Of a stretch of 64,000 nt of DNA, positions 1,625 to 61,250 are shown one piece after another. The position numbers were made by a program, and so were the translations under genes. Source of the stretch: Escherichia coli (GTDB lineage Bacteria; Pseudomonadota; Gammaproteobacteria; Enterobacterales; Enterobacteriaceae); the NCBI RefSeq assembly GCF_011045215.1, contig NZ_CP049202.1; one strand, 5' to 3'. Within the stretch, counting starts at the first letter, position 1. The number at the start of each line of letters is the position of its first letter. The notes under the pieces are model-generated. The model had not been told where the DNA came from and did not search any database. It saw only the letters and a program-made list of their open reading frames with translations.

Positions 1625-4600
1625 TCAGTCTCCGCCCAGGGTTTTCTCTTTCTGCAGGTCACGAACCATATCCCGCTCCATCTGCTGCAGTCGCTCCTGC
1701 AGCAGATTTTCCCGGGCAACCTCCCGGACCGCTTCCCGCACCCGTTGTGGTTCACGCAGTACACTCTCCGGCAGCGCGGCTTCCCGTTCAGTTATGGCAG
1801 CCCGGTCACGCTCCTGCCCGGCAATCTCCCTGACAGCCTGCTCTGTTTTGCCATCCGGCAGGTCAGGTTTGTTCTCTGCCATTTTACGGACAATTTCATC
1901 TGCGCGACGTTCCGTTTCACGGCGGATGGCCTCTTCAGCCTGCCGCTGTGCCAGTACCTCTGCCGTGACCGGTTCGCCATTTCCGGCCCCCGGCTGGACG
2001 CTGTTGTCCGGAATATCTCCCCACACGCGACCACCGGTGATGGCACCGGGATTCCACGGGCGACCTTCACCGGCAATTCTCACCACCACACCGCTGTCAG
2101 GATTATCACGAGCAATCCGGACGCCATCCTGCATGTTATCAGCCAGCAGACTCTCTCCGTTACGGCTGCCCTGCAGGGCCACGAACTGCGCATCTCCGCT
2201 GCCTTTCACCCGGCCTTCACCGCTGAATCCCCGCAGCCCGTTTCCGTCATCCGTAGTCAGTGGGTTCAGCCAGATACCGGCGGACTTGCCGTTACGGTCA
2301 AAAGCCGGCAGTGCCACATACGGCTGCGGATATTTGCGCCCCGGTGCAATAAACCGTGCAGGACTGTCTCCCCCGGCAAGTCCCGCCTGACGGAGAACGG
2401 CACGCCCTGCCGCCACGTCCCGCAGTTCCCGTGCCGTACTGAACAGTCGCTCTGCATTCATGACCTCCCGGTCAGCTTTCGGCTCCAGCACATCGTGGGC
2501 AGTCCCTTTCTGTACGGCATTGTTGATGGCATCCGTCCAGCCCTGACGGTCATCAGTGTACACCTGCACATGCTGCTTCATACGCGACAGGGCAACGTAG
2601 GCTGACTCAAAGCCGGCCATCTGTTTCCGGCCACCTTCCGTGCCTTCAAGCGCGATGGCAAAGGTTTCACTCGCCCCCTGTGCACCGTGGGCAGTGATGG
2701 CATAGGCCAGGTCAATATGTTGTTCTGCCTGCTCCTGACCGGGGCGAATCACCCGGGTCTGCAGTCCGTCAGAAAGCGTGACACTGTCACCGGAAACCGC
2801 CGTCACCGTCCAGACGCTGTTGGCCACATAGCCGCGCTCCCGGTCACTCTTCGTGAAGCGCATCCGGTCACCGGTCCCCACCCGGATGGTGTCCGGGGTG
2901 TACAGTGTGACACCTTCAGCCACCGCCTCCCGGGGCGAAATCAGCCGCGTGTTACCTTCCGCATCCTGCAGGGTTATCAGCCCGTCACCCTTACTGATAC
3001 CGGCAATCCGGTGATACACATTATCCACCAGGACAAGTGCGTCCCGATGTGTCTCCCAGGTGGAGAGACGACGCAACTCCCCGTCGCGTATATTCGCTGT
3101 GTTCAGGACAGGCACCATGACCTGCTCTTTTCCCAGCTCACCGGCCTTTTCCCGTGCATCATGAATCATGCTGTTCAGTACGCGCCGGTCCTCATTCAGA
3201 TGCGTGACAATCAGCGTCTGCTCCCGTGCTTCCGGCGTCCTGCCGGTATAATCGCGGACAATGGCTTCATACAGTGTCATGGGAATATCCGGAAAAGCCT
3301 CACCTTTCAGCATCGCCTTCTGCTGCGCTTCTGCCAGTTTCGCTTCCTGGCTGTGACTGAACTCCGTCACGGAGTGCTCCGGTACCCATGCGCCCTCCTG
3401 ACGTGGCACCTGAGACGGTTTCACACTCTCAAGCCCGGACAGTGCCCTTTCCACATCCCGGTTAATCAGGCTGTATACCGCCTCCCGCAGCTCCGGCGTC
3501 TGACGCACAATCTCCTTCATGATGGCCACATCGGCAGCACTGCGCGTCTGCTGGAGACGGAAAGGCTGACCGGGCGCGATGGCCTGCAGCTGGTCCGTGT
3601 CACCACTGGCCACGGCACGACCACCACCGGCCGCAATCAGGGCGTATGCCCGTGCCATGTCGGTATTGCCCACCATTGAGCTCTCATCGAGCAGGAACAG
3701 CGTGTTGCTGAAATCCGGCGTTTCTCCGCTGCGCTGCTGCAGCTGCGTGTCATGCAGAAAGGACGCCAGTGTCTGTGCATCCACGCCAGCGCTGCGCATC
3801 TCCCCGACCGCACGGTGCGTGGGCCCCAGCCCCACGACACGGGGACGCTCACTCTCCGGCAGCATGTTCACGGCTGACATCACCGCCCGGAACTGTGTGG
3901 TCTTACCCACACCGGCATAACCCTGCACCACCGTGAAGCGGTCAGAGGTTTCCAGTATCATGCGGGTGGCGGCACGTTGCCCCGACGTCAGTTTCTCCAT
4001 AAGTTCGCCAGGTACTCTCTCCATCAGCGGCGTGACAGCCTCCTTACCTTCGAGAATATGGCGAATAATGCTTTTTTCAGCCTCATATGACGCACGGGAA
4101 ACCAGCAGGTCTGTGCCATAACCTTTTGCCACATCCACATGCAGTAAATCACCGCGTTTTATCTGTGCATCGATTTCCCGCCCCAGGTCAGCAAAACTGG
4201 TTCCTTCTGCAGCAAACGACTTTGCCTCTGTCAGCAGGTCCACATGGCTGAAGGCCAGGTTTTTACTTTCCACCACCGGAAGGGCCAGATGAATGGCCTG
4301 CTGTGCCGGCGTGTGAAGTGCGGACTTCTGATGACTGATAGCGGTTTCCAGCGATGTCTCACCGGCCCGCGCCTTTATCTGCTCAGAAACCACCGTAAAG
4401 GAGGGATGGCGGGCAAGTTTTTCCGCAGTACGGGTTTCATCCAGTGAGGAATACAGCCGGACATCACGACCGCTGCGGGCCAGACCGTTCAGGGTGGCGT
4501 TGTCCATTGCCATCTGTGTGACGGAGGCAAAAACCTTCGCACTGTCGCTGACGGAATGCCCGGGCGTTTCCACCCAGCCGTTCTCCAGCTTCAGTGCCGT

Positions 4601-11293: not shown

Positions 11294-14136
11294 AATGGTC
11301 CCTTCAGTTGATTCTTTTTCTCATCAATCATTTTTTTCACAGTCTCTTCTGATGGCTCAGGTATTATCTTTTGACTTTCTCGCTCTTCATTATATTTATT
11401 ATTCTGAGATAATGCTTCTGTTTTATGGTGATTTTGTAGTTCAGAATACTGTTTTCTTACAATATTTTCCTCGCCTCGGATGCTGTTCTGAGTATCTCCG
11501 ATATTACCTCGATATTCTGTGACCATATTATCAACCTGATGTTTTACATCATCACGGATATTACTGTCCTGCGTTCTTTGATCAATAATGGCCTGATGCC
11601 CCTGATGGTCAGCAATAATATCCTGGCTGCCACCACCCGAAGGTACGCTCTCCATTCCTTTACCAATATCGCCACGGGATTCACGCCAGGCATTATCAAC
11701 ACCAGGCTGTATCTGTTCCTGCACAAAAGACCAGGCCATCGCCCGACGGCGTTCTGCAATCTCCGGCGAACTGGTATTTGTCAGAATAGCTTCGGCATCC
11801 TGCGGTGCGTGTTTCATCACATACTGTGCAAACTGTTGCGACAAATCTTCACTCATCTGCCCACTCATGCTTTCAGTACGGGATGCCATTTCAGCATATT
11901 CATGGCTGCGGGTCATATTCGTCGTGTACTGGTCGTAACTCTGTTTCGCTGAGTTCAGGGCTGCAGACAGCTGGTCCACACGGGAATCGGCATTATTGTC
12001 AGTATGGCTGCCGGACTCACTGACTTTGCGACTGGTAAAGTAATCGCTGGCCTCTTTAAAGTCCTTACTGGCTTTAGCATCGATATCATGTCGAGCATCA
12101 TGGGTAGCCCTGCTGCCACTACTTGCAGAATGTGAATCATCATCCGTTCGATCAAGACTTCCCTTAAATCCGCCTCTGACACCAACTCCACCACCAACCC
12201 CAAGAATTTTAGGTTTAATCCCCCATTCAGCATGAGCATCTGCATATCCGCCATACGAGAACTTAGAACCTGTTGATGCCAGTTCCTGAGTCGCCTGCTC
12301 ATTACTGATATTATGCGCTTTCGCATAGCTTTCCACTGCACTGCGCATACGGCTGGCCATCATGGAGTCCTGTGCGCTCATCGTGCTGTCAGCGCCACCG
12401 GTGACAGAATCACTGCTCCCCCGGTTAGAACCAAACTGACTGAGCGTATTCCAGGCACTGGCAATACTGCTGCTGAACCCATGCAGGGCGCTTTCTGCTC
12501 TGTTCGATGCCTCCCGGGCCATTTCCTGTTGTGCCGCCGCAATCTGACGCGTTGCATTGATACCGACCGGTAAACGGGACATCGCTCCGCTTGCATCCAT
12601 AACCATATTACCGTCACGGGTCTGTGTGGCGGTTGCGCCACTGCCGGTCTGGTACATCATCTGACCAAACGACGTGGTGCTGTTGGTGCTCCAGCTGAAG
12701 CCGTTCACGTTTTCCGTCTGCATGTTGCCGTAGGAGTAATTACCGTCAACCACACTGCCTGCTGCACTGGCCGTCGGACTGATAGATGAAGAGGCGAAGT
12801 GGCTGTACACACTGGAAAAACCTGCGCCAAGGCCTTTTACCATCATCCATGACAACGGGGGTATCATGACAGATATATATCCGGCAGTGGACGCCAGGTC
12901 GGAGTATTTCAGCTGTATCTGAGAGAGTTCAGAGAGCACGACCGGTGCACCATTCTGCTTTGCATAGAATGTCATGGCACTGTTCAGAATGGCATACAGC
13001 AACGGCCAGGTCTGGAACCACATCAGGGCAAACACATAGCCCTTCAGTACAGACAGCGTTAACCTGTTGAAGACCGCCGCCAGTACCAGGAGCGGGAAGA
13101 TACCAATGGTAATGCCCACCAGAATGGTCTGCACCATCGGCAGGTTTCGCATCAGCACATGACCAATGGAGACATGTGCCAGACGCTGTTTCTCCATCGA
13201 CGAGGTCGTGGCCAGACTGACCAGGCTGGCGGTATCACCGTTACGGGCTGCATTACTGGTGATACCCTCTTTCAGGGCATTCATGGTGACGTTCTGGCGC
13301 ATAATATGGCTGGCAGACTGGCTGGAGCCGTAGAAATAACTGTAACTGTCACTCACCAGTTGCCTGAATAACAGGTCCGGGTCCGGTCTGCCGCCAAATA
13401 TCTGCTGGACATAATAATGCCAGGTCTTGCCTCCGGTATTCGTATCAAAATTCAGCTTATCCTTCAGTCCGACGGATGCGTCCTTACAGGACACAAACGG
13501 CTCTGAACTGTGCAGAAAACTGTAATTATTATTCGGCACCTGACGTAAAGGGCTGGGCTGAGAAAAGATTATGGTGTACGGGTCAGAGGAGGCCATCAGG
13601 TCTTCCAGCGTGTATTTGTGATTCAGGTAAATATCACCCAGCACGCAGTTCTGGACGTAGTCCTGAAACAGATTGATGATTTCCGGATTCCGGGACAGAA
13701 AATCGGTGCTTTTCACAATCAGGTTCGCCCCGAACAGCATGCCTGTCTTGCTGTAGGTGGCGCTGTCAGGCTGAGCGAACACCATCTCATAGCCGGCCAC
13801 CATTGCATGCCCGATACGGGTCGTCAGTGAAAGTGGCATCGCCAGTCCGACCGGCACATTATCCACCCGATGGACTTTGACCAGGTCACTGTTATCAATA
13901 ATCTGCACCGACGTGCGGACATTAACCAGCAGGCTGATAAGCACAAACACGGCCACCCAGCCCAGCAAATCCATCACGTTGTGCCGCTGTACCCATATCA
14001 CGGCCACCGCGAGAACAGACAATGTGAGCGCAATTTTTTCAATGGAATCCCACGTCCTGGTTCCCATAAAGGCGGCAATGGCGTTCAGGTTATTCCGCAA
14101 CCATTCACCACCGGCAATCACATAAACTTCATTCAC
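11290..14136 (-). CDS. traG: TraG mating-pair stabilisation / entry-exclusion partner (948 aa)
   Basis: N-terminus MNEVYVIAGGEWL..., N-terminal membrane domain, large periplasmic C-terminal part; track start codon reads as GTG overlapping traH stop. Confidence 0.9.
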   Translation of the reverse strand: MNEVYVIAGGEWLRNNLNAIAAFMGTRTWDSIEKIALTLSVLAVAVIWVQRHNVMDLLGWVAVFVLISLLVNVRTSVQIIDNSDLVKVHRVDNVPVGLAMPLSLTTRIGHAMVAGYEMVFAQPDSATYSKTGMLFGANLIVKSTDFLSRNPEIINLFQDYVQNCVLGDIYLNHKYTLEDLMASSDPYTIIFSQPSPLRQVPNNNYSFLHSSEPFVSCKDASVGLKDKLNFDTNTGGKTWHYYVQQIFGGRPDPDLLFRQLVSDSYSYFYGSSQSASHIMRQNVTMNALKEGITSNAARNGDTASLVSLATTSSMEKQRLAHVSIGHVLMRNLPMVQTILVGITIGIFPLLVLAAVFNRLTLSVLKGYVFALMWFQTWPLLYAILNSAMTFYAKQNGAPVVLSELSQIQLKYSDLASTAGYISVMIPPLSWMMVKGLGAGFSSVYSHFASSSISPTASAAGSVVDGNYSYGNMQTENVNGFSWSTNSTTSFGQMMYQTGSGATATQTRDGNMVMDASGAMSRLPVGINATRQIAAAQQEMAREASNRAESALHGFSSSIASAWNTLSQFGSNRGSSDSVTGGADSTMSAQDSMMASRMRSAVESYAKAHNISNEQATQELASTGSKFSYGGYADAHAEWGIKPKILGVGGGVGVRGGFKGSLDRTDDDSHSASSGSRATHDARHDIDAKASKDFKEASDYFTSRKVSESGSHTDNNADSRVDQLSAALNSAKQSYDQYTTNMTRSHEYAEMASRTESMSGQMSEDLSQQFAQYVMKHAPQDAEAILTNTSSPEIAERRRAMAWSFVQEQIQPGVDNAWRESRGDIGKGMESVPSGGGSQDIIADHQGHQAIIDQRTQDSNIRDDVKHQVDNMVTEYRGNIGDTQNSIRGEENIVRKQYSELQNHHKTEALSQNNKYNEERESQKIIPEPSEETVKKMIDEKKNQLKGPL

Positions 14137-36360: not shown

Positions 36361-37008
36361 TTATCTTCCCAATATTTCTTTTACTTTAGCATATAAAGGA
36401 AGTATCTTTTCCGTTCTAATCATTTCATCCAACCAGAGATCTCTAGAACTAAATCCATATCGTTTAAATAATTTCATGGTTTTCTTCTTTGATTTAGACA
36501 CAGTGATGTTCATCTTTGCTGATGAATAATGATGGCTAAACCCTATCAGATATGGCTCAATGCCTACATATTCATCAGAGGGTACAATTAATTCATTGGA
36601 GTATTTAGACACAACAAACGATGACAGATTATCATTTGCTACCCAAATAAACCTCCAGATGAAGAAATAGCCGCATGGTGTTATAACACTTTCTATGATC
36701 ACACTCCATAACGTATTATTAAGTAATATGTCATTATTACAATTTACACCATAAATAGAAGAGCATGATTCAATCTCTGCTCTGGATAACTGTAATTTAC
36801 ATTCCAACGTTAAACTATCAAACCATTCATCACATGAATTAAAGGACGATCTGATAAGTTTTTCAAAGCAGTTATTTTCCTTAATAAAAGAACCATCCTC
36901 GAAGCGGATACATACAGGATATTTTAAAAACGAAATAGCCTCTCCAAGACTATGAGGGAAATGCAATTGACTGATGAGTGCTCTTTCTCTACGATCCATC
37001 GCACACAT
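36361..37008 (-). CDS. traJ: TraJ-type activator of the tra operon (about 215 aa from ATG with GGAGG RBS)
   Basis: AT-rich ORF between traM and traY; strong RBS at the chosen ATG; the upstream in-frame extension contains the FinP-target hairpin; identity by position, sequence is divergent. Confidence 0.6.
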
Positions 37009-37085
37009 AGGAACCTCCGTTAAGGATTCTATGGACAGTCGATGCAGGGAGTGGCTGCTCCCTGCATCGGCGATTTTCAGTTTCA
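37005..37085 (+). ncRNA. finP: FinP antisense RNA (approximate), complementary to the traJ leader
   Basis: Perfect 12-bp stem / 6-nt loop hairpin (~37040..37069) immediately upstream of the traJ RBS, where FinP is encoded in F-like plasmids. Confidence 0.4.
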
Positions 37086-37198
37086 ATTTTTAACGTGGCA
37101 TTAACCACGTAATCAATATACTAATTATTCTGATTATTGTCATCAGTTCGAACCATAAAAAACTCTGATATTTGAACAAAGTCAAAATTTATTTCCCT

Positions 37199-40943: not shown

Positions 40944-41102
40944 CTACTTACCGGATTCGTAAGCCATGAAAGCCGCCACCTCCCTGTATCCGTCTCTGTA
41001 ACGAATCTCGCACAGCGATTTTCGTGTCAGATAAGTGAATATCAACAGTGTGAGACACACGATCAACACACACCAGACAAGAGAGCTGCGTGGTAGTTTC
41101 AT
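40944..41102 (-). CDS. hok: Hok-family membrane toxin (52 aa), flmA/hok type
   Basis: [52 protein letters not shown] is near-identical to Hok. Confidence 0.9.
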
Positions 41103-41160
41103 GGCCTTCTTCTCCTTGCGCAAAGCGCGGTAAGAGGCTATCCTGATGTTGTCTAAGCAT
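40948..41160 (-). CDS. mok: Mok-type overlapping reading frame (modulator of killing)
   Basis: 70-aa ORF overlapping hok in a different frame, as in hok/mok/sok loci. Confidence 0.5.
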
Positions 41161-41210
41161 GCAGGGGCCTCGTGGGTTAATGAAAAATTAACTACGGGGC
41201 TTTTGTCCTT
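41130..41210 (+). ncRNA. sok: Sok-type antisense RNA (approximate placement only)
   Basis: Inferred from the conserved hok/sok architecture; not resolved directly from sequence. Confidence 0.3.
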
Positions 41211-41376
41211 CTGCCACACAACACGGCAACAAACCACCTTCACGTCATGAGGCAGAAAGCCTCAAGCGCCGGGCACATCATAGCCCATATCCCTGCACGC
41301 TGACCACACTCACTTTTCCTGAAAATAATCCGCTCATTCAGGCTGTTTACGGGTAATCTGTGTGATTGTTGCCGCA

Positions 41377-51873: not shown

Positions 51874-52307
51874 GTACCGTTTATCACCGTCCGGCTGACC
51901 CTTCAGGCGATGACAGTTACGTGCGACCGTTGTTTGCCGATCGTTGCCAGGCCGGTTTTCCTTCGCCTGCCACTGATTATGCTGAGCAGGAACTGGATCT
52001 GAACAGCTATTGCATCAGCAGACCTGCAGCCACCTTCTTTCTGCGCGCCAGCGGTGAATCGATGAACCAGTCTGGCGTGCAGAATGGTGATCTGCTGGTA
52101 GTGGACAGGGCCGAAAAACCACAACACGGGGACATCGTTATCGCTGAGATCGACGGTGAGTTCACCGTCAAACGACTGCTGTTGCGCCCACGCCCGGCAC
52201 TGGAGCCGGTTTCAGACAGCCCGGAGTTCCGCACACTGTATCCGGAAAACATCTGTATTTTTGGTATTGTCACTCACGTGATACACAGGACGCGGGAGTT
52301 ACGCTGA
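51870..52307 (+). CDS. impA: ImpA/UmuD/MucA-like LexA-type S24 peptidase (145 aa)
   Basis: Ser/Lys dyad context (SGESM...KRLLL), 145 aa; start overlaps the impC stop. Confidence 0.85.
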   Translation: MSTVYHRPADPSGDDSYVRPLFADRCQAGFPSPATDYAEQELDLNSYCISRPAATFFLRASGESMNQSGVQNGDLLVVDRAEKPQHGDIVIAEIDGEFTVKRLLLRPRPALEPVSDSPEFRTLYPENICIFGIVTHVIHRTRELR

Positions 52308-53577
52308 TGTTTGCACTGGCTGATATCAACAGTTTCTACGCCTCATGTGAAAAAGTTTTCCGCCCGAACCTTCGCAACGAACCGGTCATCGTACTCAGCA
52401 ATAACGATGGCTGTGTGATCGCGCGCAGCCCGGAGGCAAAAGCCCTTGGCATCAGAATGGGGCAGCTCTGGTTTCAGGTGAGACAAATGCGCCTGGAGAA
52501 GAAAATACATGTATTTTCCAGCAATTATGCGCTGTACCACAGCATGAGCCAACGGGTTATGGCTGTTCTGGAGTCGCTTTCTCCCGCAGTTGAGCCCTAC
52601 TCAATTGATGAAATGTTCATTGATTTGCGGGGGATAAATCATTGCATCTCTCCGGAGGTTTTTGGTCATCAGCTCAGGGAACAGGTAAAGAGCTGGACAG
52701 GACTCACCATGGGGGTGGGCATTGCGCCTACAAAAACGCTGGCTAAAAGTGCACAGTGGGCAACAAAGCAATGGCCACAGTTTTCCGGTGTGGTCGCGCT
52801 GACGGCAGAAAACCGTAATCGGAGCTTGAAGCTACTGGGGCTGCAGCCAGTTGGTGAGGTCTGGGGAGTAGGACGCAAACTGACGGAAAAGCTGAATGCG
52901 CTGGGTATTAACACAGCACTGCAACTGGCGCAGGCTAACACGGCATTCATCCGGAAAAACTTCAGCGTCATTCTTGAGCGTACGGTACGCGAACTCAACG
53001 GCGAGTCCAGCATATCCCTGGAAGAAGCACCACCGGCAAAACAGCAGATTGTCTGTAGTCGCAGTTTTGGTGAACGAATCACAGACAAAGATGCCATGCA
53101 CCAGGCTGTTGTTCAGTATGCAGAGCGGGCCGCAGAGAAACTACGTGGGGAGCGTCAGTATTGTCGGCAGGTGACGACATTTGTACGGACATCCCCCTTT
53201 GCAGTAAAAGAACCCTGTTACAGCAATGCCGCTGTGGAAAAGCTTTCATTGCCACACAGGACAGCCGGGACATTATTGCCGCCGCATGCAGAGCCTTAAA
53301 CCATGTCTGGCGTGAAGGGTACCGCTATATGAAGGCAGGAGTCATGCTGGCTGATTTCACACCATCGGGTATAGCGCAGCCGGGATTATTTGATGAAATC
53401 CAGCCCCGTAAAAACAGTGAAAAGTTAATGAAAACACTCGATGAACTGAACCAGTCGGGAAAAGGGAAAGTGTGGTTTGCGGGGCGAGGAACCGCCCCTG
53501 AATGGCAAATGAAACGGGAAATGCTATCGCCTTCGTATACAACACAATGGACTGAGATCCCCATTGCTTCATTCTGA
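52307..53577 (+). pseudogene. impB: ImpB/UmuC/MucB-like Y-family polymerase, disrupted by an apparent 1-nt frameshift near 53253..53257
   Basis: N-terminal part (MFALADINSFYASCEKVFRP...) is in one frame to 53299; the conserved C-terminal part (...TQDSRDIIAAA...YTTQWTEIP) is in another frame to 53577; together about 423 codons. Confidence 0.8.
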
Positions 53578-53581
53578 TATA

Positions 53582-54010
53582 TCAGAATAATTTTTTCATT
53601 TTAAGACGCACATCATTCATTGCCTCCTGCACCGAATCAGTAGCAGAAGGAGGCATTTTTTCAACAGATTGCGAAGCACCGAGTTCAGTCAACACAGCTC
53701 TGATATCGGCCTGAGAAGGCTTCCATCCAGTCGTCTGACTGAGTAAGGTTACAACCTGATCTGCTGAAAACTCCTCGCTCAAAATGGCTGTCAGCAATAC
53801 AGGCAGGCGAGGATCAAGTTGGTGTAACGCCATTCCAGAAATAAATGCATTCCGGAACAGCTCACCACGCTCAGAACGCGGAACGGACTCTATCGCTTCC
53901 AAAGTTTGAAAGTCTGCAGCTTTTTCCGGATGCAGATAAAGTGTGTATTTTTTCCTTTTCCGTTCATCGTCCACAATATTACTCCTCTTTGAAAGCCGCG
54001 ATAGCTTCAA
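53582..54010 (-). CDS. parR: ParR/StbB-like centromere-binding protein (start codon reads as TTG in the track; true start uncertain)
   Basis: Small protein downstream of the parM-like gene with similarity to R1 ParR (...LDSIPRSERGELFRNAFISGMALHQ...). Confidence 0.65.
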   Translation of the reverse strand: MKLSRLSKRSNIVDDERKRKKYTLYLHPEKAADFQTLEAIESVPRSERGELFRNAFISGMALHQLDPRLPVLLTAILSEEFSADQVVTLLSQTTGWKPSQADIRAVLTELGASQSVEKMPPSATDSVQEAMNDVRLKMKKLF

Positions 54011-54950
54011 CCAGTGCTGTCTGTGGCGACTCCATCATCACTACTTTTTGCCCAAGATGGTGCCATGCCGTTTTTATCGAATCATAGATCAACGGGGCCC
54101 CACCACCGACAACATAAACACGATTCACATGATGGAAATCACCGAGCTCATTGACTACTTGCTCCCCCAAACTGGCAATAGCCCCCTCAATGGTATTAAG
54201 GACCAGATCAGTTTTTGTTTCGTCATTTATAACCTGCCGAACAAAGTCCGGGTCATTACGACGTTTAATCAATTCATCTGCAACGAGGAAACTGGTATCA
54301 CTGGATGCCATGCGCAATGCACTCATTGCAGCTTTCGTAACTGAAGACACACCAATGCCAGAATTACCATGAATGGCACTTACAGAGTCAAATTGACCAA
54401 CGATAACACCAACATCAAGCGTAGTGCCGCCAATATCAACTACCAGCGATTTTTCGAACTGACCAACTTTATCCACGACCAGACGAGAAAACACAGCTGG
54501 CAATGATTCAGGCATCACATCAACGTGTTCAATGGTGAAAACATCGCCTTTATTAAGACGAATCGGCCTCATTAAATTCTCAATTTTACGCTGAATGTTG
54601 AGTTCATTTTTTTGACACTCTTTCGTATAGAACTCACTGATAGGCAAAGTCACAGTCAATGATACAGGCTGAGGCGCTAATCCACTATTCAGTAAAGCGT
54701 GATGCACAGCTAACAGGTTAACATCCGTATATTGATACTCAATATGAGTCGTAAGAATAGATTGGTTGCTAACTTCATCATACGTGTATTTTTTACCATC
54801 CAGTTCATAGTTAAATGTCTGGCGAATTCCTAACCCGTCAACCTTCCATCCATGACGAAATGAGTTTTGCGACAACGACTTACAGATTTTTCCATTATCA
54901 TTCCATGCCAACTTGATTGTTGTTGAACCATCATCGCAGTATACGTTCAT
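53979..54950 (-). CDS. parM: ParM/StbA actin-like segregation ATPase (323 aa)
   Basis: Actin-fold phosphate motifs (DDGSTTIKL ... VDIGGTTLD ... VVGGGA) and R1 ParM-like sequence. Confidence 0.85.
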   Translation of the reverse strand: MNVYCDDGSTTIKLAWNDNGKICKSLSQNSFRHGWKVDGLGIRQTFNYELDGKKYTYDEVSNQSILTTHIEYQYTDVNLLAVHHALLNSGLAPQPVSLTVTLPISEFYTKECQKNELNIQRKIENLMRPIRLNKGDVFTIEHVDVMPESLPAVFSRLVVDKVGQFEKSLVVDIGGTTLDVGVIVGQFDSVSAIHGNSGIGVSSVTKAAMSALRMASSDTSFLVADELIKRRNDPDFVRQVINDETKTDLVLNTIEGAIASLGEQVVNELGDFHHVNRVYVVGGGAPLIYDSIKTAWHHLGQKVVMMESPQTALVEAIAAFKEE

Positions 54951-55178
54951 CTATAGCCCCTTAAATACTCAATCTGAGTAAATCATTGTTTCTAGTTGCA
55001 AGGTAATACTCAATTTGAGCACTATCATAGTTATGAAATCACAAAACACAAGTATTATTTATTACATCACATAACGCACTTCATATTTCACACTTCATAA
55101 ATATGAACACATATTGACACCTCAGGTTACCGTGTCAAAATATCATCATACTTCACATATCACATTTATGAGGTTGCA
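54951..55178. promoter_or_regulatory. parC-like centromere/promoter region with short iterated repeats between divergent partition operons
   Basis: AT-rich; repeated ATACTCAAT(C/T)TGAG and TTCACA(C/T)TTCATA-like motifs. Confidence 0.45.
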
Positions 55179-55823
55179 ATGATTACTGTAGTTGGTGGGA
55201 ACAAAGGTGGTTCAGGGAAAACTACCATTGCATCAAACCTGGCTATTGCTCTCGCAAATAAAGGAAGGGAAGTCTGCCTGTTAAACGGAGATCTACAACG
55301 AACAGCCGCAAAACATCATGCGGAACGAGAAGCTGCAGGACTGTTACCAGCAATAACCCTTGTTGAGAAATTTGATAACCTGACACAAACACTACAGGCT
55401 CTGAATGAAAAGTTCGATGATGTAATAGTGGATGTCGCAGGAAGAAACTCAAAGGAATTCATAACGAGTGGAGTTGTCGCACATCAAATAATTGCGCCAC
55501 TACAGTGTTCTCAACCAGATCTGGATACTCTTACAGAACTAGAACAACAGATAGACGCAATGCGTAACCTTAACCCGGAACTTAAGGTTTATTGTTTACA
55601 AAGTATGGCAACAACCAATCCGGTTTTGAGGGGAAATGAGAGAAAAGAATTCCTTGAATATCTTGAAGAATTCCCAACAATTCAAGTCCTTGATTCAGTT
55701 ATTTGTTTCAGAAAAGTCTATCGCGATTGCATGAGCAACGGCACCGGTGTAGTAGAAACGAACAATACAGCAGCCAAAGCAGAAATTGAACATTTAATGA
55801 ATGAGGTATTTGGCCCATGGTGA
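55179..55823 (+). CDS. parA: Small ParA/ParF-type Walker ATPase (214 aa)
   Basis: Deviant Walker A GGNKGGSGKTT at the N-terminus; 214 aa. Confidence 0.85.
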   Translation: MITVVGGNKGGSGKTTIASNLAIALANKGREVCLLNGDLQRTAAKHHAEREAAGLLPAITLVEKFDNLTQTLQALNEKFDDVIVDVAGRNSKEFITSGVVAHQIIAPLQCSQPDLDTLTELEQQIDAMRNLNPELKVYCLQSMATTNPVLRGNERKEFLEYLEEFPTIQVLDSVICFRKVYRDCMSNGTGVVETNNTAAKAEIEHLMNEVFGPW

Positions 55824-56092
55824 AGAAACCCAGCCAGCAAGCATTAAACAGAGCTGCAGTTACGGTAGAACAAGCAGAGGCTCTGGCTCAGCGCCTTGCG
55901 GATAAACCATACGGCGCGCCGGAAAAACCCGAACCAGAAAAACAATGTCGGACGACAATCTCTCTTGGTGAAAGCATGCTTGTCACAATAGAAGATCTGG
56001 CATTGAGGAATAAACGCAATGGTAAAGATCCAAAAAATGTAAGTGCCATCGTCAGAGTAGCCCTTGAGCAATACTTAAAAACACTAACGTAA
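55817..56092 (+). CDS. Small ParG/ParB-like RHH centromere-binding partner (91 aa)
   Basis: Small protein overlapping the parA stop; C-terminal RHH-like segment. Confidence 0.55.
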   Translation: MVKKPSQQALNRAAVTVEQAEALAQRLADKPYGAPEKPEPEKQCRTTISLGESMLVTIEDLALRNKRNGKDPKNVSAIVRVALEQYLKTLT

Positions 56093-56229
56093 TAATCAAT
56101 AAGTTATTACTTATGAAATCACACTTGTGAATTCATACTTTTTAAGCACCCTTGCATACAAGAGATCACATATTGCAGTGGTCTCTTTTTTTACAGAATA
56201 AATCACAATTCATAATTATGATTTATGAA

Positions 56230-57039
56230 TTATGCGTGTCTGTTTTTCAGCATTGTGACCGCATCGGACTCAGGCATCGAAAACTGCACCCGGTGCCGTG
56301 CAGCCACATCCAGCGCAAACACCTTCGTGTAGACCTCCGTTGAGCTGATGGACTTATGCCCCATCAGGCTCTGCAGGACCTTCAGTGGTATACCGGCATA
56401 CAGCATGTGCATCGCATGGGAATGGCGGAACGTATGTGGCGTGACCGGGACAGAGAACGTCACACCGTCAGTAGCAGCGGCGGCAACCGCCTCCCCAATC
56501 CAGGTCCTGACCGTTCTGTCCGTCACTTCCCAGATCCGCACTTTCTCTGTCCTGCCTGTTCGTTTATTACGCCGTTCCAGAGGAATTTTCAGTGTTGCCA
56601 CCATCGTCTGCAGCTGACTGACGTACCAGGAGTCGGAGAGCGGAACCAGCCGGTGAGTCTGCTGTCCGGCAGGCGTTCTTCCTGCCGTCCTGGCGGCTTT
56701 TTCGGTCCGCTGCTTCAGAGTGGCCAGCTGCACAAACGGATACGGAGGCGCAAGCGAAAAATCCCCCCGCGTCAGCGCCAGTGCTTCATTAATGCGCGCA
56801 CCGGTGTTCCACAGTGTGGCCAGCAGCATCTTGCGGCGCAGATCCGGGACGTAATGGAGCAGGGCACTCACTTCCGGAGCCAGCAGATATTTCGGCAGTT
56901 CATCATGAACCATCGACATCTGGCGAAGTGCCAGAGCTGCCGGATAATCAATGACAACAGGAAGTTGTGGAGACTGTCCGGCAGAATACACTGCCGGTAC
57001 CCTGGCTGCAGACTGGCTGTGTATAACGGAGCCTGACAT
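56230..57039 (-). CDS. resD: ResD-type tyrosine site-specific recombinase (269 aa)
   Basis: C-terminal tyrosine-recombinase motifs (HTFRHSHA...LMGHKSISSTEVYT); directly downstream of ccdB as in F. Confidence 0.85.
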   Translation of the reverse strand: MSGSVIHSQSAARVPAVYSAGQSPQLPVVIDYPAALALRQMSMVHDELPKYLLAPEVSALLHYVPDLRRKMLLATLWNTGARINEALALTRGDFSLAPPYPFVQLATLKQRTEKAARTAGRTPAGQQTHRLVPLSDSWYVSQLQTMVATLKIPLERRNKRTGRTEKVRIWEVTDRTVRTWIGEAVAAAATDGVTFSVPVTPHTFRHSHAMHMLYAGIPLKVLQSLMGHKSISSTEVYTKVFALDVAARHRVQFSMPESDAVTMLKNRHA

Positions 57040-58118: not shown

Positions 58119-61100
58119 TCAGACGTGATTAAACATAGCTATGACAGGATCTGTCATCTCTGCATCCAGCTCCCAGAGATGGGTCATAATACTTTTAAGC
58201 GGATCATCTGCATCTTCCCGGCAGAACGTGCAGAACATCGTATCATCAGGATAACGGAACAGACGTAAACGGCCAAAAGATGAATTCCGTACCAGTAATG
58301 AGTAATTATCCTGACAGTCCGGAACGAAATATATTGTACAGTTGCCAATCATATATTGAAGAACATGTGGCTGATATCCCTTTTCTGGTTTACTTACTCT
58401 TTTTATGCCAAGTTCATTATGTTTATCAGTGCAATATTCAAGTTCGTATAATTTCCTGGAAAAACAATCACCATACACAATGAGAGTGCAATCTTCTTCT
58501 TTTTTCATAAAAATTTTTACTTTATGAAAAAGTTCATCCAGATTGCCTATATCCTCACTCAACTGACCGCGATTAATAAAGAGTTTCCGGTGAACTGTAT
58601 TAAGTATGTTGTCTGCAATTGTTGTTGAGGGAAAAAATGTCGGATCAATTGTGCGTCCAAGTTTCTTTGCCACACTTTCCTTATCAATGCCAATATTAAT
58701 CCATTGTTTTTCCCAGCGTTCTGAAATTCCAGTATCAGGTGTAAACTCAAACAGAGAAAGAAGATGATCTTTCTTAATATCATCAACAACATTCTGAGAG
58801 ATGTTCATATCAATTCTTCTGAAAAGATCGATGTCTGCTTCTGCCTTTATAATATCTGACTTAATACTTTCTTCAAAAGCGGATATGTACATGTCCAGCG
58901 TTCTGTTAAAGAATACAACTCGCGTAGCATACTCCTCCGATGTCTTCAGAAAGTTTTCTGCTACTTCTGTTGTGCTTTTTGTCAGAGATTTCAGCGTATA
59001 AACAATATTTTTTTTATCAGAAAATGAAAAAATCCCTTCACCGATTGCAGTAACCACTTTCTGGCTGATACGTTGTTCAGATACAGACAGCATTACCGCT
59101 ATATCAGCAAATGCAGGGTATAGTGTGTTTAAATCATCAACACTACTCATATAAATCCGCCCGGAAATAACCGGGCCTTTGTTGTTTCTGGTGAGCCTCT
59201 CCACCATATGAGACAAACGTGAAAACCAGTTACTGTGCTCGTCTGCATGGCAGAAAGTGAGACGTAATATAACATCAATAATATCAGTCTGACCTACTAT
59301 TGCCGAAGGTAGTGTATTATATGCACCAGTTGGGGCGACCAGTGAAGGAGACAGTAACCGTTTGATGACAGTGAGCAAATTGACATTTTTTTGTTGTCCC
59401 AGATACCTCACCATATAAGCTGACAGGAACAGGCGGAGATCAGTCATCACATTACGCATTGTCAGGGATAATGCGGCTTTTTCGTTATACGATGCCCCCC
59501 TCAATATGCAGGACTGACAGTTGTCTGAAACAGAGTGCAATAAAAAATCTGGCGTAAGAAAAAGGCTGTGCCACAGATATTCTTCGTGATAATGATTATG
59601 AAACTGCCCCTGATTAAGCCACAGCATAAACATATCAGTACTCAGATCAGTGGCATCAATATCATCAGATGTTATTGCCGTAATAAGCATTTCCATAGAG
59701 CGAAACAAATGTGATACAAGGGCCTCAGTATAGCCAGCAGTATCAACATTATTCTTAAACGTCAGACGCAACCACATATGCCAGCTTTCCCACTCGCCGA
59801 TAAAATGTTGCAGCATTGCAACATAACGTTGCTTCTGGTTCACTGATAACGCCTTGTTTCCAACATTCCAGTCAATCAGTATCTGCCAGATATCACACTG
59901 GGACTGAAGAGCCTGTTGCAACTCTCCGGTTCTGTCTTCTCCCCGATACCGGTAAAAAGACTGAGGAAGATGTATGATCTTTCGAAAATACGTAGATGTG
60001 GTATCCAGTGTTTTCACCACTTCTTCTGCAAGACGGTAGAAATCATTATGAAAAGACTGGCTTAAACTTTGTGGAAAAAATGAAATGGATACATCATCAA
60101 TATAATTTTTATCACCATACTGGAAACATCTTTTCAGTGTAATAAAGGTCGAAACAAGTCTGTCTGCAGCTTCCTCAAACGCCCCCAGATTTCGTTCATC
60201 CAGAGCATCATAAATTTCCCCATAAAAACCTCTGGTGAAATTTAAAAAATTTGTTTTTTCCCATTTGCTTCCACGGATAAAACAGAGCTTAAACAGCTTC
60301 TCCCAGATAGCATTATATCTGATACCGGTTGTAGCCAGAATAACCACTTCGCTGTTATGTATCCCCCACCCAGGTAAGACTCTGATTCTTGCAGGTCCCG
60401 TTCCGACAGGTTTTAATCTCCTGAGGAGAAACAATAATGGAAGTGTATAGATATCTCTCACACATTCATCCATTTTAAGTTTTAACTTCAGAAGATCAGA
60501 CTTTTCCTTCTCCGGAGAATCATAAACATCAACAGAGACATTCAGCCGTCCCATTTGGTTAATATATCTCCCAGGAAGAGCCAACCAGTTTTTTACCATT
60601 GCTGTTCTGATATGTTGCGCCACGACTTTTGAAATAAAATACTTAAGCATAATTCGATCACGCCGGCGATCATCCAGAACATTCAGGCTCTGAATAAAAA
60701 ACCAGATAGACAAACCAATATTCATGATCATCCAGATTATTGCCACTACAACAAGGCAAATATCAAGGTATTTATCCCCCCGGGCAGACAAAAGTTCACT
60801 CACCAGAATAAATGCAGCAAGGGAAAGACCGCTCAGACCTGCAAACATGTATCCTGAGTAAAGCTGATAGGCCGACTGGATATGCTCACGTGTCGATTTT
60901 TTCTGAAAAAGGACGCTGATCAGACCGACAACTAATGGAAATACAATACCAATGATGGTTAATTGTCCACCCAGCAGATCTGAGAGTCCATCTGGAAGCT
61001 TTTCAATCCCCTTAAAATACTGCCTGCCAAATGGAGCCAAGACCGGCCTCAGATACAAACCAGCAAGTACAATCATTATTGCACCAACCCAGAGAATCAA

Positions 61101-61250
61101 CATAGCCCGCCCATAGTATGTCGAGCACCAGGCCAGCAGGCGCTCAAAAACATTCCAGCGGTATTTTCGATATTCAGAATTCATACGTAAATTATGTCTG
61201 AGCTCACGATCAACAAGACTGTTCACGCTTTTAAACAGTTTACTCAACAT
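58119..61250 (-). CDS. Hypothetical large protein (1043 aa): four N-terminal TM helices plus a ~850-aa soluble region with Cys-rich C-terminus; function unknown
   Basis: Single long ORF, AT-rich by eye; hydrophobic helices at about residues 50-190; no Walker A or other motif I recognise. Confidence 0.7.
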   Translation of the reverse strand: MLSKLFKSVNSLVDRELRHNLRMNSEYRKYRWNVFERLLAWCSTYYGRAMLILWVGAIMIVLAGLYLRPVLAPFGRQYFKGIEKLPDGLSDLLGGQLTIIGIVFPLVVGLISVLFQKKSTREHIQSAYQLYSGYMFAGLSGLSLAAFILVSELLSARGDKYLDICLVVVAIIWMIMNIGLSIWFFIQSLNVLDDRRRDRIMLKYFISKVVAQHIRTAMVKNWLALPGRYINQMGRLNVSVDVYDSPEKEKSDLLKLKLKMDECVRDIYTLPLLFLLRRLKPVGTGPARIRVLPGWGIHNSEVVILATTGIRYNAIWEKLFKLCFIRGSKWEKTNFLNFTRGFYGEIYDALDERNLGAFEEAADRLVSTFITLKRCFQYGDKNYIDDVSISFFPQSLSQSFHNDFYRLAEEVVKTLDTTSTYFRKIIHLPQSFYRYRGEDRTGELQQALQSQCDIWQILIDWNVGNKALSVNQKQRYVAMLQHFIGEWESWHMWLRLTFKNNVDTAGYTEALVSHLFRSMEMLITAITSDDIDATDLSTDMFMLWLNQGQFHNHYHEEYLWHSLFLTPDFLLHSVSDNCQSCILRGASYNEKAALSLTMRNVMTDLRLFLSAYMVRYLGQQKNVNLLTVIKRLLSPSLVAPTGAYNTLPSAIVGQTDIIDVILRLTFCHADEHSNWFSRLSHMVERLTRNNKGPVISGRIYMSSVDDLNTLYPAFADIAVMLSVSEQRISQKVVTAIGEGIFSFSDKKNIVYTLKSLTKSTTEVAENFLKTSEEYATRVVFFNRTLDMYISAFEESIKSDIIKAEADIDLFRRIDMNISQNVVDDIKKDHLLSLFEFTPDTGISERWEKQWINIGIDKESVAKKLGRTIDPTFFPSTTIADNILNTVHRKLFINRGQLSEDIGNLDELFHKVKIFMKKEEDCTLIVYGDCFSRKLYELEYCTDKHNELGIKRVSKPEKGYQPHVLQYMIGNCTIYFVPDCQDNYSLLVRNSSFGRLRLFRYPDDTMFCTFCREDADDPLKSIMTHLWELDAEMTDPVIAMFNHV

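What the first reader, a model, noticed from the sequence alone, without database searches (positions are those of the whole stretch)
53582..56092. Divergent double partition locus sharing one iteron-bearing control region
A ParM/ParR-type actin-like system on the minus strand and a small ParA Walker ATPase plus RHH partner on the plus strand are transcribed divergently from a ~230-bp AT-rich region containing short iterated repeats. This composite arrangement is known from plasmid pB171; its presence next to ccdAB-resD in an F-like conjugative backbone indicates mosaic stability functions.
Basis: partly seen in the sequence, partly recalled or inferred. Interest (0 to 1): 0.4.

Follow-up and report, generated by a model that had tools for sequence, protein, structure and literature searches.

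The report
pB171-type double plasmid partition locus
This stretch is the well-studied "double par" cassette first described on E. coli plasmid pB171: two back-to-back plasmid-segregation machines sharing one control region. It is intact here and common in E. coli plasmids, so it is ordinary.

Summary
Window 53582-56235 holds parR-parM on the minus strand (type II, actin-like) and parA-parB on the plus strand (type Ib, Walker ATPase plus small RHH-like protein). They diverge from a 228-bp region of 32% GC (parC1).

ParR is 130/130 identical to PDB 2JD3, the crystallised pB171 ParR. The exact ParA sequence is the UniRef100 entry Q0H055, which a 2026 paper uses as its pB171 ParA reference.

parC1 carries two sets of repeats:
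- Two exact copies of AATACTCAAT, 41 bp apart, upstream of parM. [quoted passage not shown]
- 17 unspaced 7-bp units (NNTCAYA, both orientations) that flank the parA promoter.

It has two 5-heptad clusters around a terminator.

All four ORFs are intact and catalytic motifs are present. The locus occurs at 97.5-100% identity in 981 PLSDB plasmids and in 734 of 5,426 complete E. coli genomes.

Verdict: already known, low interest. The only loose end is that the terminator and distal heptad cluster persist in about 535 plasmids that lack both par systems.

The parts
53582..53974 (-). parR (stbB), 130 aa. Centromere-binding adaptor of par1. Starts at GTG, with a GAGGAG Shine-Dalgarno inside the end of parM.
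   Evidence: 130/130 identical to PDB 2JD3 'STBB PROTEIN', which is pB171 ParR according to PMC3074162. Pfam Plasmid_stab_B at E 1e-29. The exact sequence is seen on at least 1000 contigs.
53979..54950 (-). parM (stbA), 323 aa. Actin-like ATPase of par1.
   Evidence: Matches R1 ParM structures (1MWK and others) at E 3.8e-76 over residues 2-295. DDGST, DxGGTTLD, GGGA and MPES are conserved in that alignment. Pfam StbA_N at 2.6e-64 plus the ParM C-terminal domain at 6.4e-44.
54951..55178 (.). parC1: 228-bp shared intergenic control region and centromere, GC 0.316.
   Evidence: The literature describes a single regulatory region shared by par1 and par2 (PMC6519299).
54964..54978 (.). ParR repeat proximal to parM: AATACTCAATCTGAG. 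The exact 10-bp core AATACTCAAT lies at 54964-54973.
   Evidence: Direct-repeat family D9. The 10-mer occurs only twice in the window. Invariant in 4 related loci. [quoted passage not shown]
55005..55019 (.). ParR repeat distal to parM: AATACTCAATTTGAG. It contains the palindrome CTCAA-A-TTGAG and lies 41 bp from the first copy.
55023..55113 (.). ParB heptad array A: 13 unspaced 7-bp units (NNTCAYA or its inverse). 8 are exact, 4 have one mismatch and 1 is degenerate. The array ends at the -35 of the parA promoter.
   Evidence: Register analysis; enrichment against shuffles. Among relatives, substitutions concentrate on the Y position (6 of 21) and spare the fixed core (2 of 84), Fisher p 0.0007.
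55114..55141 (+). Promoter-like site for parAB (P2): TTGACA, 16-nt spacer, CAAAAT with an upstream TG.
   Evidence: 10 of 12 consensus match, the best in the region. This is a consensus match only; the transcription start was not tested.
55144..55171 (.). ParB heptad array B: 4 exact units (3 direct, 1 inverted) between the -10 and the parA ribosome-binding site.
   Evidence: positions 55146, 55153, 55160, 55167.
55179..55823 (+). parA, 214 aa. Small type Ib ParA/MinD-like ATPase. It has a deviant Walker A (G6-G-N-K9-G-G-S-G-K14-T-T), D38 (A') and a Walker B (D81-V-I-V-D85).
   Evidence: PDB hits to ParF 4DZZ at E 1e-7 and to ParA, MinD and Soj structures. NCBIfam ParA_partition 117 bits, below the curated cutoff of 180. 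Pfam CbiA, ParA and MipZ. The exact sequence is UniRef100 Q0H055, the pB171 ParA reference used in PMC13245405.
55817..56092 (+). parB, 91 aa. Small centromere-binding protein with a flexible N-terminal half and a C-terminal RHH-like domain (about residues 45-90). Its ATG overlaps the end of parA (ATGGTGA).
   Evidence: Pfam RHH_1 at E 0.0038 covering model positions 1-38 of 39. A profile of 4 relatives hits CopG 1B01 over the whole chain at E 0.039. The AF2 model has an extended segment followed by helices 52-68 and 75-90, with pLDDT about 83. PMC2441792 classes pB171 ParB with the RHH proteins ParG and omega.
56103..56137 (.). parC2, proximal cluster: 5 unspaced heptads (4 exact, in alternating orientation).
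   Evidence: Downstream arrays are also present in the stand-alone par2 relatives on Aeromonas and Klebsiella plasmids. [quoted passage not shown]
56160..56192 (+). Intrinsic-terminator-like hairpin (10-bp stem) followed by a T-run. Probable end of the parAB transcript.
56201..56235 (.). parC2, distal cluster: 5 unspaced heptads (2 direct, 3 inverted; a near-palindrome) overlapping the integrase stop codon (56230-56232).
   Evidence: inverted repeat I7. One whole heptad is missing in L009. Caveat: this cluster and the terminator also occur in plasmids without par.

Best explanation
This is an intact copy of the pB171-type double partition locus.

par1 (type II). ParR dimers bind the two AATACTCAAT repeats upstream of parM. 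The ParR-DNA complex captures the ends of ATP-ParM actin-like filaments. Insertional growth of the filaments pushes sister plasmids apart.

par2 (type Ib). Dimers of the small ParB coat arrays of unspaced 7-bp units (NNTCAYA, in either orientation) in parC1 and in parC2 downstream of parB. Nucleoid-bound ParA-ATP dimers are stimulated to hydrolyse ATP by the ParB-DNA complex. Plasmids then follow the receding ParA gradient and become evenly spaced over the nucleoid.

Regulation. Both sets of sites overlap or abut the two divergent promoters, so ParR and ParB also repress transcription. In pB171, ParB has been reported to affect the non-cognate par1 operon as well.

Shown here: gene identities, intact motifs, the repeat architecture and its statistical support, the conservation pattern, and prevalence.

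Inferred from identity to the studied pB171 proteins and from the literature: DNA binding, filament and gradient dynamics, repression, and plasmid stabilisation.
For: - ParR is 130/130 identical to the crystallised pB171 ParR (PMC3074162).
- The exact ParA sequence is UniRef100 Q0H055, the pB171 ParA reference in PMC13245405.
- ParM matches R1 ParM at E 4e-76 with nucleotide-binding motifs conserved.
- ParA has the deviant Walker A and related motifs.
- ParB gives RHH signals.
- Two exact 10-bp direct repeats lie upstream of parM, unique in the window and invariant in relatives. This matches the published description (PMC9426499).
- There are 17 heptads in parC1 and 10 in parC2; none of 2000 shuffles reaches the observed TCAYA counts.
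- Substitutions among relatives fall on the degenerate Y position (6 of 21) and spare the fixed core (2 of 84).
- A stand-alone par2 relative from Aeromonas (ParA 82%, ParB 70%) has the same TCAYA units upstream and downstream. A Klebsiella relative (ParA 58%, ParB 44%) has 8-bp units in both places.
- Changes in parM, parA and parB among relatives are mostly synonymous.
- The whole locus is kept as a unit in 981 plasmids and 734 of 5,426 complete E. coli genomes.
Against: - Nothing in the sequence argues against this reading.
- The pB171 nucleotide record and the primary papers were not available, so parC1 and parC2 could not be aligned base by base to the mapped binding sites.
- My count of 17 heptads in parC1 agrees with what I remember of the published count, but I could not verify that.
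- No minus-strand promoter for parMR reached the scan threshold. The best candidate by eye is TTGAGT, 17-nt spacer, AACAAT (8 of 12).
- The RHH assignment for ParB is statistically weak by my own tests, and the fold search was empty.
- parR shows as many nonsynonymous as synonymous changes, on very small counts.
- The distal parC2 cluster also occurs without par genes.
Confidence: 0.95

Rival explanations
1. Only one of the two systems is a working segregation machine here. The other survives as a regulatory or decaying passenger: for example, ParB acting only as a repressor, or ParMR inactive.
For: parR shows 4 nonsynonymous against 2-3 synonymous codon changes versus relatives, on very small numbers. 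PMC11950199 reports incomplete ParA- and ParM-type operons on another virulence plasmid, so decay does occur in this family. No promoter for parMR reached the scan threshold.
Against: All four ORFs are full length. The exact protein sequences are each seen on at least 1000 contigs. ParR is identical to the functional, crystallised protein. ATPase motifs are intact in both NTPases. Changes in parM, parA and parB are mostly synonymous. At megablast sensitivity the two halves are essentially never found apart in 72,556 plasmids.
Confidence: 0.04
2. The AT-rich repeat region is a replication origin with iterons for a Rep protein, or a generic AT-rich spacer. On this view it is not a centromere and operator.
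For: The region is AT-rich with short, closely spaced repeats.
Against: No rep gene adjoins the region. The same 7-bp unit recurs downstream of parB. It also recurs around parAB in a stand-alone relative on an unrelated Aeromonas replicon. The repeat unit changes together with ParB divergence in the Klebsiella relative. Variation respects the TCAYA core. The literature assigns these arrays to ParB and ParR (PMC7602700, PMC9426499).
Confidence: 0.01
3. The distal heptad cluster and terminator (56154-56235) are not part of par2. They belong to the 3' flank of the integrase (resD-like) module. The true parC2 would then be only the proximal cluster, 56103-56137.
For: About 535 PLSDB plasmids with no par1 or par2 keep just this roughly 70-nt piece at 93-96% identity, next to the same kind of integrase and downstream of cmi. 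Homology starts at about 56154. The cluster is a near-palindrome that overlaps the integrase stop codon (inverted repeat I7).
Against: Its units are the same NNTCAYA heptads in the same unspaced register as parC1. Relatives differ by loss of exactly one heptad and by a Y-position change. The hairpin has a T-run only on the plus strand, which fits termination of parAB and not of the integrase gene. A remnant of par2 left after replacement by the colicin module explains the data equally well.
Confidence: 0.2

Closest known systems
par1/par2 double partition locus of E. coli EPEC plasmid pB171 (Ebersbach & Gerdes 2001; Ringgaard et al. 2007)
   Same: The gene order, orientation and sizes agree: ParR 130 aa, ParM 323 aa, ParA 214 aa, ParB 91 aa. 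ParR is 100% identical to the crystallised pB171 ParR. The ParA sequence is the reference accession used for pB171 ParA (PMC13245405). There are two 10-bp ParR repeats upstream of parM, ParB arrays upstream and downstream of the operon, and one shared control region (PMC9426499, PMC7602700, PMC6519299).
   Different: No difference was detected. The host replicon here is a conjugative F-type plasmid with a full tra region. From my own knowledge, pB171 is the EPEC adherence-factor plasmid. Nucleotide identity to pB171 itself could not be measured because the record was not available.
parMRC (stbAB) of plasmids R1/R100, the type II paradigm
   Same: An actin-like ParM (E 4e-76 to R1 ParM structures, motifs conserved), a ParR adaptor encoded downstream, and a centromere of direct repeats upstream of parM that overlaps the promoter.
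   Different: R1 ParR binds 11-bp repeats (at least two are needed, PMC9426499); here there are two 10-bp repeats. The R1 locus stands alone (PMC2762410); here the centromere region is shared with a type Ib system.
delta/omega-parS of pSM19035 (type Ib, Firmicutes)
   Same: A small ParA with a small protein that has a flexible N-terminal tail. The centromeres double as operators and are made of unspaced 7-bp heptads in direct and inverted orientation, at several sites. The omega heptad WATCACW (PMC2441792) is matched exactly by three units here (AATCACA at 55037, 56117 and 56201).
   Different: There is no detectable sequence similarity between this ParB and omega (no PDB hit at E up to 10). 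The motif here tolerates TCATA. omega also regulates copy number and a toxin-antitoxin operon.
parFGH of TP228 and the par locus of IncI plasmid pESBL (type Ib, Enterobacteria)
   Same: ParA resembles ParF (4DZZ, E 1e-7 over the full length). [quoted passage not shown]
   Different: parH is a single array of about 100 bp made of degenerate tetramer boxes (PMC3130281). pESBL uses octamer repeats. Neither is paired with a ParMR system.
Other plasmids with two partition systems: Shigella pINV (ParAB and StbAB) and R27
   Same: A type I and a type II system (pINV), or two partition modules (R27), on one large enterobacterial plasmid.
   Different: On pINV the two loci lie about 90 kb apart, so direct cross-talk is unlikely (PMC6519299). 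Here they are adjacent and share the centromere and operator region.

Membership tests
pB171-type double par locus | parMR and parAB operons adjacent, divergently oriented, separated by one shared intergenic region | tested here: met
   parM starts at 54950 (minus strand) and parA at 55179 (plus strand), 228 bp apart.
pB171-type double par locus | ParR is the pB171 ParR protein | tested here: met
   130/130 identical to PDB 2JD3, which PMC3074162 names as pB171 ParR.
pB171-type double par locus | ParA is the pB171 ParA protein | tested here: met
   The exact sequence carries the UniRef100 representative Q0H055, the accession given for pB171 ParA in PMC13245405. This link is indirect, through a database label.
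pB171-type double par locus | Two 10-bp direct repeats for ParR upstream of parM | tested here: met
   AATACTCAAT at 54964 and 55005. These are the only exact copies in 64 kb. The feature is as stated in PMC9426499.
pB171-type double par locus | ParB repeat arrays both upstream (parC1) and downstream (parC2) of parAB | tested here: met
   12 and 9 exact TCAYA cores in 7-bp register; none of 2000 shuffles reaches these counts. The feature is as stated in PMC7602700.
pB171-type double par locus | Each locus stabilises a low-copy replicon, and ParB cross-regulates par1 | not testable with these tools
   This needs plasmid-loss and reporter assays. It is known for pB171 only from the literature (PMC11950199 citing Ringgaard 2007).
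Type II (ParMRC) partition system | Actin-fold ATPase with the phosphate-1, phosphate-2 and adenosine motifs | tested here: met
   DDGST, DIGGTTLD and GGGA align with R1 ParM. Pfam StbA_N and the ParM C-terminal domain.
Type II (ParMRC) partition system | Promoter of parMR embedded in the centromere repeats (autoregulation) | tested here: inconclusive
   No minus-strand promoter reached 9 of 12 in the scan. By eye, TTGAGT, 17-nt spacer, AACAAT (8 of 12) lies between the two repeats.
Type Ib ParABS (small ParA with RHH ParB) | Small ParA without an N-terminal HTH domain, with deviant Walker A xKGGxxK[ST] | tested here: met
   214 aa, N-K9-GGSG-K14-TT starting at residue 8. Full-length similarity to ParF. 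The NCBIfam ParA_partition model scores 117 bits, below its curated cutoff of 180, so it does not qualify as that specific equivalog.
Type Ib ParABS (small ParA with RHH ParB) | Centromere-binding protein with a ribbon-helix-helix fold | tested here: inconclusive
   Pfam RHH_1 at E 0.0038. Profile against CopG at E 0.039. The AF2 model shows an extended segment followed by two helices, pLDDT about 83. Foldseek found no match. The literature classes pB171 ParB as RHH (PMC2441792).
omega/parS-type heptad centromere (pSM19035) | Unspaced 7-bp repeats in direct and inverted orientation at promoter regions | tested here: met
   Arrays of 13, 4, 5 and 5 units in register, in both orientations, abutting the -35 and the -10.
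omega/parS-type heptad centromere (pSM19035) | Binding protein homologous to omega | tested here: not met
   No hit to omega chains in PDB sequence searches at E up to 1 (single sequence) or up to 10 (4-sequence profile). The locus resembles this system in how it works but is not a member.

The most novel reading that the evidence does not exclude
The terminator and distal heptad cluster (56154-56235) survive at 93-96% identity in about 535 plasmids that lack par1 and par2, next to the same kind of integrase. They might be a functional orphan centromere rather than a dead remnant. If so, those plasmids could be partitioned in trans by ParA and ParB from a co-resident pB171-type plasmid, or made incompatible with it.
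Probability: 0.08. Interest if true: 0.4.

Novelty: already known. Interest (0 to 1): 0.08.

Why it matters
As a discovery it matters little. The cassette has been a textbook model for type Ib and type II plasmid segregation since 2001, and this copy is canonical.

It has practical value for annotation. Public records label these genes 'AAA family ATPase', 'division plane positioning ATPase MipZ', 'CopG family transcriptional regulator' or 'hypothetical protein'. The two centromeres are not annotated at all, although the locus sits in about 13.5% of complete E. coli genomes.

Knowing that this plasmid carries both systems next to ccdAB helps explain its stable inheritance. It also predicts partition-based incompatibility with other plasmids that carry the same cassette.

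Tried and rejected
- pB171 record. Fetching it (AB024946, NC_002142) failed; it is not in the collections.
- Primary papers. Ebersbach & Gerdes 2001, Ringgaard 2007 (two papers), Ringgaard 2009 and Sengupta & Austin 2011 are not held. Published site descriptions are therefore taken second-hand from papers that cite them.
- NCBIfam. No family for ParR or ParB, and only sub-threshold hits for ParA and ParM.
- ParB structure. The single-sequence AlphaFold model was poor (pLDDT 58). A 4-sequence alignment raised the C-terminal half to about 83. Foldseek against the PDB then found nothing (best E 2.6). This is plausible for a monomer model of an obligate-dimer RHH, but the result is uninformative.
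- Direct PDB sequence search with ParB. Only chance hits.
- Replication-iteron reading of the repeats. Rejected; see the rival explanations.
- XerC/D or dif-like reading of the distal palindrome. Considered by eye. It matches only about 5 of 11 and 7 of 11 positions in the arms, which the heptad motif itself explains, so I did not pursue it.
- Locus L008 (CP031286.1). All four par ORFs are broken by frameshifts, and nothing is annotated under the match in that record. I treated this as assembly error. Removing L008 drops only two variable columns, neither in a heptad core, so the substitution result stands.
Full report
**1. What is in the sequence**

- Minus strand: a 323-aa ORF (53979-54950) is followed after 4 nt by a 130-aa ORF (53582-53974). 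The second ORF starts at GTG, 8 nt downstream of GAGGAG. The 142-aa version in the ORF list is only the mechanical extension to an upstream TTG.
- Plus strand: a 214-aa ORF (55179-55823) is followed by a 91-aa ORF (55817-56092). The ATG of the second overlaps the end of the first (ATGGTGA).
- The two operons diverge from a 228-bp spacer (54951-55178) with GC 0.316, against 0.503 for the window.

**2. Identity of the four proteins**

- ParR. The 130-aa protein is identical at all 130 residues to PDB 2JD3, 'StbB protein'. PMC3074162 names that entry as pB171 ParR. It also matches Pfam Plasmid_stab_B at E 1e-29.
- ParM. The 323-aa protein matches the R1 ParM structures at E 3.8e-76. The actin-fold nucleotide-binding motifs DDGST, DxGGTTLD, GGGA and MPES are conserved. 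It carries Pfam StbA_N and the ParM C-terminal domain.
- ParA. The 214-aa protein is a small ParA/MinD-type ATPase.
  - It has a deviant Walker A (N-K9-GGSG-K14-TT), D38, and a Walker B DVIVD.
  - It is similar over its full length to ParF of TP228 (4DZZ, E 1e-7) and to MinD, Soj and MipZ.
  - The NCBIfam ParA_partition model scores 117 bits, under its curated cutoff of 180.
  - Its exact sequence is the UniRef100 entry Q0H055, which PMC13245405 lists as pB171 ParA.
- ParB. The 91-aa protein gives weak but consistent ribbon-helix-helix signals.
  - Pfam RHH_1 scores E 0.0038 over the whole model.
  - A profile of four relatives hits CopG over its whole chain at E 0.039.
  - An AlphaFold model built from those four sequences has an extended segment followed by helices 52-68 and 75-90, with pLDDT about 83.
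  - Foldseek found nothing.
  - PMC2441792 groups pB171 ParB with the RHH proteins ParG and omega.

All four exact sequences are in the public protein collection, each on at least 1000 contigs.

**3. The repeats**

Two unrelated sets of repeats share the spacer.

*ParR repeats.* Next to parM lie two 15-nt direct repeats, AATACTCAAT[C/T]TGAG, at 54964 and 55005, 41 bp apart. Their 10-bp core occurs nowhere else in the 64-kb window. [quoted passage not shown]

*ParB heptads.* The rest of the spacer is filled with a 7-bp unit, NNTCAYA, in direct or inverted orientation and without spacing.
- Thirteen contiguous units (55023-55113) end exactly at a TTGACA hexamer.
- That hexamer, with a 16-nt spacer and TG-CAAAAT, is the best promoter-like site in the region.
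- Four more units (55144-55171) lie between that -10 and the parA ribosome-binding site.
- The TCAYA core occurs 12 times here. Shuffles give a mean of 3.4 and a maximum of 9, and none of 2000 reaches 12.

- There are five units at 56103-56137, a plus-strand terminator hairpin at 56160-56187 with a T-run, and five units at 56201-56235.
- That is 9 exact cores against a shuffle mean of 1.7, and none of 2000 shuffles reaches 9.
- A di-heptad pattern is found only in these two regions in the whole window.
- This second array matches the parC2 centromere of pB171. [quoted passage not shown]

**4. Comparative support**

*Conservation among close relatives.* I compared four related copies at 97.5-99.5% identity.
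- The non-coding parC regions vary more (8-11% of columns) than the genes (1-4%).
- The variation is structured: 6 of 21 Y positions of the TCAYA cores vary, always C-T or G-A and so preserving the motif.
- Only 2 of 84 fixed core positions vary, against 20 of 266 positions elsewhere. Y against fixed core gives Fisher p 0.0007.
- No change falls in the ParR repeats.
- One relative of good assembly quality (L009) lacks exactly one heptad from the distal cluster.
- Changes in parM, parA and parB are mostly synonymous. parR is undecided on very small counts.

*Stand-alone par2 relatives.* More distant relatives of par2 stand alone, with no ParM or ParR within 3 kb.

| Plasmid | ParA identity | ParB identity | Repeats around parAB |
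|---|---|---|---|
| Aeromonas salmonicida pAsmB | 82% | 70% | TCAYA units at 7-bp spacing upstream, 14-bp spacing downstream |
| Klebsiella pneumoniae (OW969683.1) | 58% | 44% | 8-bp units upstream (AAATGATA, 7 copies) and downstream |
| Rahnella aceris pRAHAQ02 | 42% | not detected by tblastn | TCAYA arrays absent (1 core each side); not examined for other repeats |

So the dual centromere belongs to par2, and its repeat unit drifts as ParB diverges. The ParMR type also stands alone, on R1/R100-like plasmids (PMC2762410). This supports the view of a composite built from two lineages.

**5. Prevalence and context**

- The whole locus is present at 80% coverage or more and 97.5-100% identity in 981 of 72,556 PLSDB plasmids.
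- It is present in 734 of 5,426 complete E. coli genomes, almost always on plasmids.
- ParA copies at 95% identity or more number about 987 plasmids. Close copies of par2 are therefore essentially always in the double locus.
- The window is collinear with an F-type conjugative plasmid: traX/traI through traM, the leading region, umuDC, par, integrase, ccdBA.
- The same umuC-par-integrase block also sits on an IncK2/Z plasmid and on the 323-kb Salmonella Infantis megaplasmid.
- GC falls from 0.52-0.54 in umuDC to 0.36-0.47 across the locus, then rises to 0.54-0.60 in the integrase.

'Mosaic' is a fair description, but the arrangement is the common one for this cassette.

**6. How it most likely works**

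By identity with the studied system, the mechanism is as follows.
- ParR on its two repeats captures ATP-ParM filament ends, and filament growth pushes sister plasmids apart.
- ParB dimers coat the heptad arrays of parC1 and parC2.
- The ParB-DNA complexes stimulate ATP hydrolysis by nucleoid-bound ParA. Plasmids follow the receding ParA and become evenly spaced (PMC4270457, PMC9662831).
- The heptads abut the -35 and cover the stretch between the -10 and the ribosome-binding site, so ParB binding should repress parAB.
- The ParR repeats flank the only plausible parMR promoter.
- Cross-regulation between the divergent operons is reported for pB171 (PMC11950199, PMC6519299).

These functional steps are inferred, not shown here.

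**7. One loose end**

Homology to plasmids that lack both par systems begins at about window 56154. The parAB terminator and the distal heptad cluster are kept at 93-96% identity between cmi and the integrase in about 535 plasmids, for example pCREC-544_1 and pO26_1.
- The piece may be a remnant left when a colicin module replaced par. The plus-strand-only T-run fits that reading.
- It may instead belong to the integrase flank and not be a ParB site.
- Less likely, it may be an orphan centromere usable in trans.

**8. Verdict**

It should be extended by parC2 and corrected for the parR start codon. The feature is already known, canonical and common, so interest is low.

Noticed in passing
window 52307-53577: umuC (the Y-family polymerase gene next to parR) is split into two frames (330-aa and 138-aa ORFs). 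RefSeq marks the same gene as 'frameshifted' in the near-identical plasmid pWY517IncF, while relatives on other plasmids carry an intact Y-family polymerase gene.
   Followed up: partly
window 56154-56235; L002 about 4001-4073; L003 about 4001-4070: The parAB terminator and the distal heptad cluster are conserved (93-96%) in about 535 plasmids that have neither par1 nor par2. There they lie between the colicin M immunity gene and the same kind of integrase.
   Followed up: partly
window 56200-56206 versus L009 (NZ_CP141242.1): A relative lacks exactly one 7-bp unit (AATCACA) of the distal parC2 cluster. This is the kind of unit-sized indel expected of a repeat array.
   Followed up: no
L009 (NZ_CP141242.1, IncK2/Z) and L010 (NZ_CP016407.1, 323-kb Salmonella Infantis plasmid): The block umuC, parRM, parAB, integrase is also found on plasmids with I-type mating-pair formation, not only on F-type backbones. 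It seems to move as a unit.
   Followed up: no
window 55037, 56117, 56201: Three heptads read AATCACA. This is an exact match to the WATCACW heptad bound by the omega protein of the Gram-positive plasmid pSM19035, although ParB and omega show no detectable sequence similarity.
   Followed up: partly
window 58119-61250 (minus strand): A 1043-aa ORF of low GC (about 0.39) next to ccdAB has no match in PADLOC or NCBIfam. The near-identical plasmid annotates a shorter 'hypothetical protein' there.
   Followed up: partly
window 37002-37110, 41100-41271, 13311-13396: Rfam gathering-score hits: FinP with the traJ 5' UTR, the sok antitoxin RNA, and the antisense-to-traG RNA. These are standard F-plasmid RNAs.
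   Followed up: no
L008 (CP031286.1, E. fergusonii p80_40A): All four par ORFs are broken by frameshifts, and nothing is annotated under the match (35 features in the whole 80-kb record). This looks like an uncorrected assembly rather than biological decay.
   Followed up: partly
L006 (OW969683.1) 2880-2990 and 3905-3970: A Klebsiella par2 relative uses 8-bp units (AAATGATA, 7 copies upstream; TGATTTTA-type downstream) instead of 7-bp units. Its ParB gene (3639-3914) is not annotated in the record.
   Followed up: partly
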